Shown: positions 10,134 through 11,505, numbered from the stretch's first letter. The stretch is 64,000 nucleotides of DNA from Escherichia coli 042 (GCF_000027125.1 NC_017626.1); one strand, 5' to 3'. Program-made: numbers and translations. Notes: generated from the letters alone by a model not told the origin.

Positions 10134-10430
<297 letters not shown>

Positions 10431-10573
10431 TATTCTGCTCCTGGAGTAGACTATTGTTGACTTTATAGTGTGAGCCTTCAGGTTCTTATATTTATTTTAG
10501 TGATGTTATCATAAATATCAATTATTTCATGAATGATAACACTATCTGTATAAGCACTTATTTATAATTATTA

Positions 10574-10608
10574 AAGGCGCGCCTGGCTGGTTAACCTGAC
10601 GCGCCTTA
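10574..10608 (-). terminator. Hairpin 3' of shoB (probable shoB mRNA terminator)
   Basis: aaggcgcg ... cgcgcctt inverted repeat followed by an A/T-rich tract on the minus strand. Confidence 0.45.
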
Positions 10609-10624
10609 AGTACGTTTCCTTATG

Positions 10625-10705
10625 TTATAAGAACAGAAGGATCAGCTGTAAAACAGCAATGATGATTTTGATGACCCGTTTAATCAGGTATCGGCAATCA
10701 GTCAT
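10625..10705 (-). CDS. shoB: Type I toxin ShoB (26-aa hydrophobic peptide)
   Basis: Hand translation of the minus strand gives MTDCRYLIKRVIKIIIAVLQLILLFL*, which I recognise as ShoB. Not in ORF track (too short). Confidence 0.85.
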   Translation of the reverse strand: MTDCRYLIKRVIKIIIAVLQLILLFL

Positions 10706-11029
10706 TCGTTTTTCCTTAAACAAGGAATGCAGCCGTTCAGATTAGCCCTTACATCTCCCCAAAACTGAACGTGCGAGTTATTGAGGGTGCATGCTGCACT
10801 CCACACCAGAGCTTTGACGACACCACTCGTTTCAATGGGGGAATTCTGTGGCATGGTATAAAGCACAGCATAATCGCCAATAACGAAGCCAATTTTAATG
10901 TACTTCCGAATTGGCGGTCACGTTAATCTTTCCATCAATATTGTTTTCTTCGTAAAGGCTCGAGTTTTTATGCTAAAGATTACAAGTTGCTTGTAAAAGA
11001 TAACCGCCCTGATCCATAATCGCTCTTGT

Positions 11030-11108
11030 TGAGGGTGCGTGCTGCACAAAATTAAAGTTAAAAAGTAAAACCCCCGTTCCTTACCAGTTCGGGGGTTTTA
11101 CTTTATAA
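11030..11108 (+). ncRNA. ohsC: Candidate OhsC antitoxin sRNA (approximate ends)
   Basis: Plus-strand segment holding the second copy of a 19-nt direct repeat (11039-11057) shared with the shoB 5' region (10781-10799), ending in a hairpin plus T-run; -10-like cataat at 11025-11030. Confidence 0.45.
11081..11108. terminator. Bidirectional terminator (acpS operon / candidate ohsC)
   Basis: cccccg ... cggggg hairpin flanked by an A-run and a T-run. Confidence 0.6.
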
Positions 11109-11124
11109 AGAGAACGGTATTATT

Positions 11125-11505
11125 TTAACTTTCAATAATTACCGTGGCACAAGCATAGTGGCGTTCATCTGCCAGCGTTACATGCATATTTACAACGCCG
11201 AGCTTTTCCGCCAGTTTTAATGCCTCGCCCCACAGTCGCAGCCGTGGCTTACCAAGCTCATCGTTAAATACTTCAAACTGATTAAACGCCAGACCATTGC
11301 GGATCCCGGTGCCAAACGCTTTTGCTGCGGCTTCTTTTACGGCAAAGCGTTTCGCCAGAAAACGCACCGGCTGGTGGTGCGTTTTCCAGATTGCCCATTC
11401 GTTATCGTTTAATACGCGGCGTGCCAGGCGCTCACCGGATCGGGCGATCACCGCTTCAATGCGAGCGATCTCCACAATATCCGTACCTAAACCTAATATT
11501 GCCAT
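11125..11505 (-). CDS. acpS: Holo-[acyl-carrier-protein] synthase
   Basis: 126-aa ORF recognised as AcpS. Confidence 0.93.

What the first reader, a model, noticed from the sequence alone, without database searches (positions are those of the whole stretch)
10574..11108. shoB/ohsC type I toxin-antitoxin locus with a 19-nt direct repeat that explains sRNA-mRNA pairing
The AT-rich yfhL-acpS spacer encodes the 26-aa peptide MTDCRYLIKRVIKIIIAVLQLILLFL on the minus strand (10625-10705). ttgagggtgcatgctgcac (10781-10799) recurs as ttgagggtgcgtgctgcac (11039-11057, one A/G difference) just before a terminator on the plus strand. Because the two transcripts are divergent, a direct DNA repeat gives complementary RNAs (the difference allows a G-U pair), which is the geometry expected for OhsC pairing with the shoB 5' UTR. 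Exact transcript ends are not determinable from sequence alone.
Basis: partly seen in the sequence, partly recalled or inferred. Interest (0 to 1): 0.5.

Follow-up and report, generated by a model that had tools for sequence, protein, structure and literature searches.

The report
Known shoB/ohsC toxin-antitoxin locus
This stretch is the well-studied E. coli shoB/ohsC toxin-antitoxin pair, and the 19-base repeat is the already published site where the small RNA OhsC pairs with the toxin mRNA, so the finding is correct but ordinary.

Summary
The 26-aa ORF at 10625-10705 (-) is 100% identical to K-12 ShoB. The 19-mer at 10781-10799 recurs with one A/G difference, but at 11029-11047, not 11039-11057 as written (a 10-nt slip). 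Rfam ohsC_RNA matches 11028-11104 (+) at 106.6 bits (gathering 50), and the K-12 ohsC annotation maps to 11028-11106. Both published promoters are present. The 19-nt complementarity between the OhsC 5' end and the shoB 5' UTR is published (Fozo 2008, as cited in PMC3919570), so the finding is already known.

New supporting detail comes from 5,426 E. coli genomes. The two sites co-vary as two specificity types. The K-12 type is in 3,028 genomes with a perfect duplex and in 505 with the window's G.U variant. The O157/ST131 type is in 1,688. At most 9 genomes could mix types. Six of 20 pairs change on both sides. Position 11 runs A-U (K-12), G.U (window), G-C (E. albertii). Both types also occur in E. 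albertii. The repeat is also a deletion hotspot: 53 genomes carry a precise 248-bp repeat-to-repeat deletion that removes both promoters. The step after pairing (standby-site block and/or RNase III cleavage) remains inferred.

The parts
10569..10612 (.). Hairpin between the convergent yfhL (+) and shoB (-) genes; probable bidirectional terminator and 3' end of the shoB mRNA
   Evidence: Inverted repeat I2. It is folded as a hairpin at the 3' end of the predicted shoB mRNA. The stem differs from K-12 at several positions.
10625..10705 (-). shoB ORF, 26 codons plus stop: toxic hydrophobic peptide ShoB
   Evidence: Translation identical to K-12 b4687. Annotated as 'type I toxin-antitoxin system toxin ShoB' in RefSeq genomes.
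10712..10727 (-). Shine-Dalgarno AAGGAA (10717..10712) paired with the anti-SD UUCCUU (10727..10722) in a local hairpin
   Evidence: RBS AAGGAA is given as 100% conserved in PMC11264685. Predicted SD unpaired probability is 0.06-0.09 in the full-length, +41/+42/+43 and OhsC-blocked folds. This is prediction only.
10780..10799 (-). OhsC target site in the shoB 5' UTR (mRNA nt ~87-106). It lies 75 nt upstream of the AUG and is repeat copy 1 (19-mer 10781-10799)
   Evidence: It co-varies with the OhsC seed across alleles.
10844..10885 (-). 5' leader of the full-length shoB mRNA. TSS inferred at about 10885; the part removed to give the processed, translatable +40/+41 form ends at about 10845
   Evidence: TSS inferred from the -10 position, giving a 317-nt mRNA against the ~320 nt reported, with a ~280-nt processed form (PMC5397157; PMC5066626; PMC7708055). 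In the fold, nt 14-23 and 6-9 pair with the target site.
10892..10921 (-). shoB promoter: -35 GTGACC (10921..10916), 18-nt spacer, -10 TAAAAT (10897..10892)
   Evidence: Consensus scan. Same hexamers as published for MG1655 (PMC11264685). Checked.
10991..11020 (+). ohsC promoter: -35 TTGTAA (10991-10996), 18-nt spacer, -10 CATAAT (11015-11020)
   Evidence: Consensus scan. Same hexamers as published. Checked.
11028..11106 (+). OhsC antitoxin sRNA
   Evidence: Rfam RF02495 at 11028-11104, 106.6 bits, E = 1.1e-17. The K-12 ncRNA ohsC (b4608) maps to 11028-11106 through the alignment.
11028..11047 (+). OhsC 5' seed, repeat copy 2 (19-mer 11029-11047). G at 11039 where K-12 has A
   Evidence: Duplex -41.0 kcal/mol against -41.4 for K-12.
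11062..11104 (+). OhsC terminator: 15-bp stem AAAGUAAAACCCCCG / CGGGGGUUUUACUUU. It is near-palindromic with A- and T-runs, so it probably also terminates the convergent pdxJ-acpS transcript
   Evidence: Inverted repeat I1. Rfam consensus structure, plus a weaker minus-strand ohsC match of 35 bits caused by the palindrome. The same palindrome is noted in PMC11264685.

Best explanation
This is the chromosomal shoB/ohsC type I toxin-antitoxin locus of E. coli, in the yfhL-acpS spacer. shoB is transcribed leftwards from about 10885 as a roughly 317-nt mRNA with a 180-nt 5' UTR, and it encodes the 26-aa membrane toxin ShoB. ohsC is transcribed rightwards from 11028 as a 77-79-nt sRNA. The two genes diverge, and both contain the same 19-20-nt DNA segment in direct orientation. 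As a result, the first 20 nt of OhsC are complementary to shoB mRNA nt ~87-106, which lie 75 nt upstream of the start codon. Pairing represses ShoB synthesis. The most likely route is that OhsC occupies a single-stranded ribosome standby region that the processed (+40/+41) mRNA needs, because its Shine-Dalgarno sequence is locked in a local hairpin. The duplex is also a substrate for RNase III. Shown here: the identity of both genes, the promoters, the complementarity, its co-variation across lineages, and discrimination between cognate and non-cognate pairs by about 12-20 kcal/mol. Taken from the literature on K-12: toxicity, repression by OhsC, 5' processing and RNase III cleavage. Inferred: the standby-site mechanism, and expression in this particular strain. 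The window carries a minority allele (OhsC G at 11039; this combination is in 505 of 5,426 genomes) that replaces one A-U with a G.U at a cost of about 0.4 kcal/mol.
For: Identity: ShoB is 100% identical to b4687. RF02495 scores 106.6 bits against a gathering score of 50. Synteny yfhH-yfhL-shoB-ohsC-acpS-pdxJ-recO is the same as in K-12. A match is present in 5,425 of 5,426 E. coli genomes. Promoters. Pairing: the repeat is non-random. Seed-only duplex energies are -41.0 (window), -41.4 (K-12) and -34.2 (type 2), against -19 to -24 for cross-type pairs between the common sites. Co-variation: two specificity types differ at 7 of 19 positions, 6 of which changed identically at both sites. In the census, the cognate combinations are in 3,028 + 505 + 1,688 genomes, and at most 9 genomes could be cross-type. 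97.5% of cells pair and 6 of 20 pairs change on both sides, against 0-1 when the partner is slid. Position 11 is A-U, G.U or G-C in K-12, the window and E. albertii. All 5 transition differences between the copies are in the wobble-compatible direction (p = 0.031). Divergence between the types is 14/38 in the sites against 7/355 in the other transcribed sequence (p = 4e-11). Literature: 19-nt complementarity through the OhsC 5' end (PMC3919570); RNase III cleavage in the shoB/OhsC duplex region in vivo (PMC6212723); forms of ~320 and ~280 nt, of which only the processed one is translated (PMC5397157, PMC5066626); standby model proposed (PMC7708055). Folding: the SD stays closed in all forms, and target accessibility rises from 0.24 to 0.44 after the first 41 nt are removed.
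Against: No expression data exist for this strain. RefSeq PGAP does not annotate ohsC outside K-12. The primary paper (Fozo 2008) could not be read here, so the mapped ends are taken second-hand. The standby mechanism has never been shown for shoB, and my folds are thermodynamic predictions without pseudoknots. The type 2 alleles tolerate an internal U.U mismatch, and the pairing length needed for repression is unknown (PMC11264685). The block of co-varying positions between the types may be a single evolutionary event, so the number of independent compensatory events is small.
Confidence: 0.95

Rival explanations
1. Same locus and same pairing, but repression works through a dinQ-like structural switch. 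Removing the 5' leader would free the target segment to pair with the anti-SD and open the SD hairpin, and OhsC binding would let the SD hairpin close again.
For: Proposed for shoB by analogy in PMC5066626. In my fold of the full-length mRNA, the 5' leader (nt 6-23) does pair with the OhsC target (nt 87-105). This resembles the dinQ sequence 1:2 duplex.
Against: In partition-function folds, the SD unpaired probability stays at 0.06-0.09 in the full-length, +41/+42/+43 and OhsC-blocked forms. No opening of the SD is predicted. This is prediction only, without pseudoknots or co-transcriptional folding.
Confidence: 0.2
2. Same locus, but the pairing acts mainly by triggering RNase III cleavage and decay of the shoB mRNA rather than by blocking translation.
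For: RNase III cleavage sites were detected in the putative shoB/OhsC duplex region in MG1655 (PMC6212723). A 20-bp duplex is close to the length RNase III can use.
Against: Reviews list the mode of action as 'inhibit protein synthesis' (PMC4147584). In the related tisB/IstR-1 and bsrG/SR4 systems, repression does not need RNase III. Type 2 duplexes are split into 10 + 9 bp by a mismatch.
Confidence: 0.15
3. The two copies are kept alike by DNA-level processes, such as gene conversion between direct repeats or a shared protein-binding site, and not by selection on RNA-RNA pairing.
For: Recombination between the copies does happen: 53 genomes carry a precise 248-bp repeat-to-repeat deletion. 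The type 1/type 2 block difference could be a single conversion-like event. CpxR is reported to bind in this spacer.
Against: Where the copies differ by a transition, all 5 differences are in the direction that gives a G.U or U.G wobble in RNA rather than an A.C mismatch. DNA homogenisation would not favour either direction. The reported CpxR sites are described as promoter-associated, with CB2 overlapping the ohsC -35. The repeat starts exactly at the OhsC 5' end. RNase III cleavage in the duplex region has been seen in vivo.
Confidence: 0.03
4. The repeat is a chance match in an AT-rich spacer and the small ORF is not a gene.
For: None beyond the small size of the ORF. The NCBIfam HMM library gave no hit for the 26-aa peptide.
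Against: 0 of 100 shuffles reproduce the repeat. The ORF is identical to K-12 ShoB and shows 0 differences in 81 nt between haplotypes that differ by 20% in the adjacent promoter region. The Rfam match is far above the gathering score.
Confidence: 0.01

Closest known systems
shoB/ohsC type I toxin-antitoxin locus of E. coli K-12 (b4687 / b4608; formerly ryfB/ryfC; Rfam RF02495)
   Same: Same genomic position, an identical ShoB peptide, identical promoter hexamers, an identical OhsC body and terminator, and the same 5'-seed/5'-UTR geometry.
   Different: One base in the OhsC seed (G at 11039 where K-12 has A) turns one A-U pair into G.U. There are 8 differences in the inter-TSS region, including the variable CpxR CB2 area, and a different allele of the yfhL/shoB terminator stem.
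tisB/istR-1 (E. coli), the paradigm of divergent, limited-complementarity type I systems with standby-ribosome control
   Same: Divergent genes; about 20 nt of pairing through the sRNA 5' end far upstream of a sequestered RBS; an inactive primary transcript and an active form processed at about +40; RNase III cleavage of the duplex.
   Different: No sequence homology. No LexA control; CpxR has been proposed instead. A standby site has not been demonstrated for shoB.
zor/orz (E. coli O157:H7)
   Same: Same architecture. The pairing region is hypervariable between alleles while pairing potential is kept (PMC11264685), which parallels the two shoB/ohsC specificity types found here.
   Different: zor/orz is multicopy, so variation there can be explained as avoiding cross-talk. 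shoB/ohsC is single-copy (median 1 place per genome), so that explanation does not carry over directly.
dinQ/agrB (E. coli)
   Same: Divergent sRNA, long structured 5' UTR, and 5' processing needed for translation. A four-element switch was suggested to apply to shoB as well.
   Different: agrB pairs over 34 nt. My folds of shoB do not predict that the SD opens after processing.

Membership tests
shoB/ohsC type I toxin-antitoxin system | 26-aa hydrophobic ShoB peptide | tested here: met
   100% identity to K-12 b4687. RefSeq product name 'type I toxin-antitoxin system toxin ShoB'. No NCBIfam HMM scores a peptide this short.
shoB/ohsC type I toxin-antitoxin system | OhsC sRNA matching the curated covariance model (sequence plus structure) | tested here: met
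   RF02495 at 11028-11104 (+), 106.6 bits against a gathering score of 50, model positions 1-77 of 77.
shoB/ohsC type I toxin-antitoxin system | Location between yfhL and acpS, with the genes divergent and not overlapping | tested here: met
   Gene order as in K-12. The inferred TSSs are 143 nt apart.
shoB/ohsC type I toxin-antitoxin system | About 19 nt of complementarity between the OhsC 5' end and the shoB 5' UTR | tested here: met
   19-mer with one G.U wobble, 20 bp counting OhsC nt 1, -41.0 kcal/mol. Co-variation across alleles.
shoB/ohsC type I toxin-antitoxin system | Both RNAs are expressed, ShoB is toxic, and OhsC represses it | not testable with these tools
   Known for K-12 only from the literature. 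Promoter hexamers are intact in the window.
Divergent type I systems with standby-site control (tisB/istR-1 type) | The sRNA pairs far upstream of the RBS and does not overlap the SD or the start codon | tested here: met
   The target ends 75 nt upstream of the AUG.
Divergent type I systems with standby-site control (tisB/istR-1 type) | The RBS is sequestered in the translatable mRNA form, and the sRNA target is single-stranded there | tested here: inconclusive
   Predicted SD unpaired probability is 0.06-0.09 in all forms. Target accessibility is 0.24 in the full-length form and 0.44 in the +42 form. This is thermodynamic prediction only.
Divergent type I systems with standby-site control (tisB/istR-1 type) | Ribosome standby binding that the sRNA competes out | not testable with these tools
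   Only hypothesised for shoB (PMC5397157; PMC7708055).
Classical cis-antisense type I systems (hok/sok, ibs/sib, ldr/rdl) | [quoted passage not shown] | tested here: not met
   The genes do not overlap, and complementarity is limited to about 20 nt supplied by a direct repeat 248 bp away. PMC3919570 classes shoB/ohsC as 'unconventional'.

The most novel reading that the evidence does not exclude
The shoB/ohsC recognition duplex exists as two ancient, mutually poorly compatible specificity types. Type 1 is the K-12/window type and type 2 is the O157:H7/ST131 type. They differ at 7 of 19 positions, co-changed at both sites, and both segregate in E. coli and in E. albertii. Divergence is concentrated about 19-fold in the two 19-nt sites relative to the rest of the transcripts. 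This would be a trans-species dimorphism of a single-copy toxin-antitoxin 'lock and key', kept by selection rather than drift (for example incompatibility on recombination, or a further RNA partner of OhsC). It would also answer the caveat in PMC11264685 that pairing potential had not been validated for shoB-ohsC.
Probability: 0.3. Interest if true: 0.4.

Novelty: already known. Interest (0 to 1): 0.15.

Why it matters
The finding as submitted re-identifies a textbook type I toxin-antitoxin locus and re-derives its published pairing logic, so it adds nothing new by itself. The follow-up gives modest value. First, it provides natural compensatory-change evidence, over 5,426 E. coli genomes plus E. 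albertii, that the OhsC seed/shoB UTR duplex is under selection. A 2024 survey said this could not yet be stated. Second, it shows that the window's G.U allele is the intermediate of an A-U to G.U to G-C path. Third, it shows that the repeat which creates the regulation is also a liability, because it mediates a recurrent precise deletion of both promoters in about 1% of genomes. These points could guide swap experiments between type 1 and type 2 to define the minimal pairing needed for repression.

Tried and rejected
(1) The NCBIfam HMM scan of the 26-aa peptide gave no family. The peptide is too short and the RefSeq name evidently does not come from an HMM, so I used direct identity to K-12 instead.

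(2) RNAduplex with full-length OhsC gave inflated energies (-58 kcal/mol) because it pairs the OhsC terminator with the UTR. I rejected this in favour of seed-only duplexes.

(3) The 64-nt deletion-junction query over-counted, because two-piece matches in intact loci were joined (1,383 at 80% coverage or more). I replaced it with a 35-nt junction query that cannot seed in intact loci, which gave 53 genomes.

(4) The dinQ-like switch was tested by folding and is not supported by the predictions. I keep it as a rival explanation.

(6) Literature searches for ohsC plus compensatory or covariation returned neuroscience 'OHSC' noise, or papers that use 'compensatory' for other systems. The supplement search of PMC11264685 for deletion, interrupted and base pair found nothing in the one file held.

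(7) The E. albertii and E. whittamii representative contigs end inside the locus. I recovered complete E. albertii loci through exact YfhL look-ups.

(8) The terminator scan missed the OhsC terminator because its loop is longer than 8 nt. The hairpin is supported.

Full report
OBSERVATION. The window between yfhL (10170-10430, +) and acpS (11125-11505, -) is a 39% GC spacer in a 51% GC window. The minus-strand ORF at 10625-10705 translates to MTDCRYLIKRVIKIIIAVLQLILLFL. The 19-mer TTGAGGGTGCATGCTGCAC is at 10781-10799. Its second copy, TTGAGGGTGCGTGCTGCAC, is at 11029-11047. At up to 3 mismatches these are the only two matches in the 64-kb window on either strand, and none of 100 dinucleotide shuffles gave two matches. 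The repeat extends to 22 nt at 91% identity, with a spacing of 248 bp.

IDENTITY. The peptide is identical to K-12 ShoB, b4687. Rfam RF02495 (ohsC_RNA) matches 11028-11104 on the plus strand over its full length, at 106.6 bits against a gathering score of 50. The K-12 ncRNA annotation (NC_000913.3 2700520-2700598) maps through the alignment to 11028-11106. Gene order is as in K-12: yfhH, yfhL, shoB, ohsC, acpS, pdxJ, recO. The region matches 5,425 of 5,426 complete E. coli genomes, always on the chromosome. The promoter hexamers published for MG1655 are all present in the window: shoB -35 GTGACC and -10 TAAAAT, and ohsC -35 TTGTAA and -10 CATAAT (PMC11264685). They lie at 10921..10892 (-) and 10991..11020 (+), and a blind consensus scan picks them up. 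A TSS inferred 7 nt downstream of the shoB -10 (about 10885) gives a 317-nt mRNA with a 180-nt 5' UTR. This matches the ~320-nt full-length shoB transcript in the literature (PMC5397157).

PAIRING. The genes diverge, so the direct DNA repeat makes the OhsC 5' end (11028-11047) complementary to shoB mRNA nt ~87-106 (10799..10780), 75 nt upstream of the AUG. The seed-only duplex is 20 bp and -41.0 kcal/mol in the window, against -41.4 in K-12. The same base lies in OhsC's own small 5' hairpin (GUGCR-UGC-UGCAC), and it costs about 0.4 kcal/mol there too (OhsC MFE -28.1 against -28.5 kcal/mol).

EXTRA TEST: DOES PAIRING SURVIVE NATURAL VARIATION? PMC11264685 states that the pairing regions of shoB-ohsC vary a lot, and that sufficient pairing potential 'cannot yet be said' for this pair. 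I fetched representative alleles and found two specificity types. Type 1 (K-12, the window) has TTGAGGGTGCATGCTGCAC on the shoB side, and the same sequence with A or G at position 11 on the OhsC side. Type 2 (O157:H7, ST131 and others) has TTGGAATCGAGTGCTGCAC on the shoB side and TTGGAATCGTGTGCTGCAC on the OhsC side. Seven of the 19 positions differ between the types. Six changed identically at both sites, and position 10 leaves a U.U mismatch in type 2.

I then linked the two sites genome by genome with synthetic two-piece queries, built so that non-cognate alleles share no 28-nt seed. This gave 3,028 genomes with type 1 and OhsC-A, and 505 with type 1 and OhsC-G, which is the window's combination. 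For type 2, 1,688 of the 1,697 genomes with either piece have both. At most 9 genomes could carry a cross-type combination, and one of these was seen to be a 2-nt insertion variant (L015). Cognate duplexes are -34 to -41 kcal/mol, and cross-type duplexes between the common sites are -19 to -24.

BEYOND E. COLI. One scan of species-representative genomes with a degenerate ShoB-codon pattern found the locus only in Escherichia. This fits the reported E. coli/Shigella restriction (PMC2887945). Complete loci in E. albertii backgrounds are over 99% identical to the type strain in murR-yfhL and about 89% identical to the window there. They carry both types. E. albertii type 1 has shoB-side A7 and G11 against OhsC G7 and G11, which gives a G.U and a G-C. 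E. albertii type 2 has shoB-side C15 against OhsC U15, which gives a U.G. Position 11 thus shows A-U (K-12), G.U (window) and G-C (E. albertii).

On eight distinct haplotypes, 97.5% of cells form standard pairs, and 6 of 20 pairs change on both sides, against 0-1 when the partner is slid by 1-3 columns. All five transition differences between the two copies are in the wobble-compatible direction (binomial p = 0.031). Selection on RNA would favour that direction, but DNA homogenisation would not. Between K-12 (type 1) and O157:H7 (type 2), the sites differ at 14 of 38 positions and the remaining transcribed sequence at 7 of 355 (Fisher p = 4e-11). The inter-TSS promoter region differs by about 20% and the ORF by 0 of 81. 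One caveat applies: the type 1/type 2 block may be a single event, so independent compensatory events are few.

MECHANISM AFTER PAIRING. The following come from the literature on K-12. ShoB overproduction depolarises the membrane (PMC5397157). Only the 5'-processed form (+40/+41, about 280 nt) is translated. RNase III cleavage sites were detected in the putative duplex region in vivo (PMC6212723). Reviews list the mode of action as inhibition of protein synthesis and suggest a tisB-like standby site, while PMC5066626 suggests a dinQ-like switch.

My folds of the window's mRNA show the SD (AAGGAA, 10717..10712) paired with UUCCUU (10727..10722) in every form, with an unpaired probability of 0.06-0.09. 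The OhsC target is partly buried by the 5' leader in the full-length RNA (unpaired probability 0.24) and more open after 41 nt are removed (0.44). This favours a standby-type block over SD opening, but it is prediction only. I commit to standby occlusion plus RNase III cleavage as the most likely route, at about 0.5-0.6 given that the locus identity is right.

SIDE FINDINGS. The repeat is a deletion hotspot. L014 and L016 carry a precise 248-bp deletion that leaves one hybrid copy and removes both promoters. A junction-specific query finds this in 53 of 5,426 genomes, in at least two haplotype backgrounds. One genome (EC96) has an IS1B element replacing shoB and the OhsC 5' part. PGAP does not annotate ohsC outside K-12.

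VERDICT. The locus and the pairing logic are already known. Interest is low for the finding itself. The co-varying two-type structure, its presence in both E. coli and E. albertii, and the repeat-mediated deletion are modest additions. I did not find them reported in the papers available here, but the two key primary and review papers could not be read.

Noticed in passing
window 10781-10799 and 11029-11047; loci L003-L009, L023-L030: The two repeat copies co-vary as two specificity types. Type 1 is TTGAGGGTGCRTGCTGCAC. Type 2 is TTGGAATCG[A/T]GTGCTGCAC, found in 1,688 E. coli genomes including O157:H7 and ST131. Both types also occur in E. albertii backgrounds, which suggests an old or exchanged dimorphism of the toxin-antitoxin recognition duplex.
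   Followed up: yes
L014 (NZ_CP022912.1) and L016 (NZ_CP167126.1); corresponds to window 10800-11047: There is a precise 248-bp deletion between the two direct-repeat copies. It leaves one hybrid copy and removes both the shoB and ohsC promoters. The junction is present in 53 of 5,426 complete E. coli genomes, in at least two haplotype backgrounds.
   Followed up: yes
L013 (NZ_CP060748.1, strain EC96): An IS1B element sits between yfhL and acpS. shoB and the 5' part of the locus are gone, and only the OhsC 3' part remains.
   Followed up: partly
window 10569-10612: The hairpin between the convergent yfhL and shoB genes exists in at least two stem alleles (window GGCGCGCCTGG.../...CCTGACGCGCC against K-12 GGTGCGTCCGA.../...CCGGACGCACC). 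The stem changes look compensatory. The window-type stem also occurs in E. albertii and in one type 2 E. coli strain, so this part of the locus seems to have a mosaic history.
   Followed up: partly
window 11062-11146 (-): A weak minus-strand Rfam ohsC hit (35 bits, below gathering) is caused by the near-palindromic OhsC terminator with flanking A- and T-runs. The hairpin probably also terminates the convergent pdxJ-acpS transcript.
   Followed up: partly
window 10431-10568: The yfhL-shoB spacer is 27.5% GC and is the most variable part of the region between the window and K-12, more so than the shoB/ohsC transcripts. It contains a good sigma-70-like match on the minus strand (TTGATA-16-TAAAAT, 10521..10494) that points toward yfhL. 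Its function is unknown.
   Followed up: no
window 10998-11010 (upstream of the ohsC -10): The window differs from K-12 in a cluster (AACCGCCC against AAGTACAC) just downstream of the ohsC -35. This lies in the area that PMC11264685 describes as the highly variable CpxR CB2 site, so CpxR control of ohsC may differ between lineages.
   Followed up: no
RefSeq annotations of L001, L003-L012: PGAP annotates shoB but not ohsC in all non-K-12 genomes inspected. The antitoxin half of the locus is therefore systematically missing from RefSeq annotation.
   Followed up: partly
L015 (NZ_CM172811.1, strain FCI1): This type 2 allele has a 2-nt insertion (GC) inside the shoB-side pairing site, TTGGAATCGAGGCTGCTGCAC. 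It would put a bulge in the duplex (-29.6 against -34.2 kcal/mol).
   Followed up: partly
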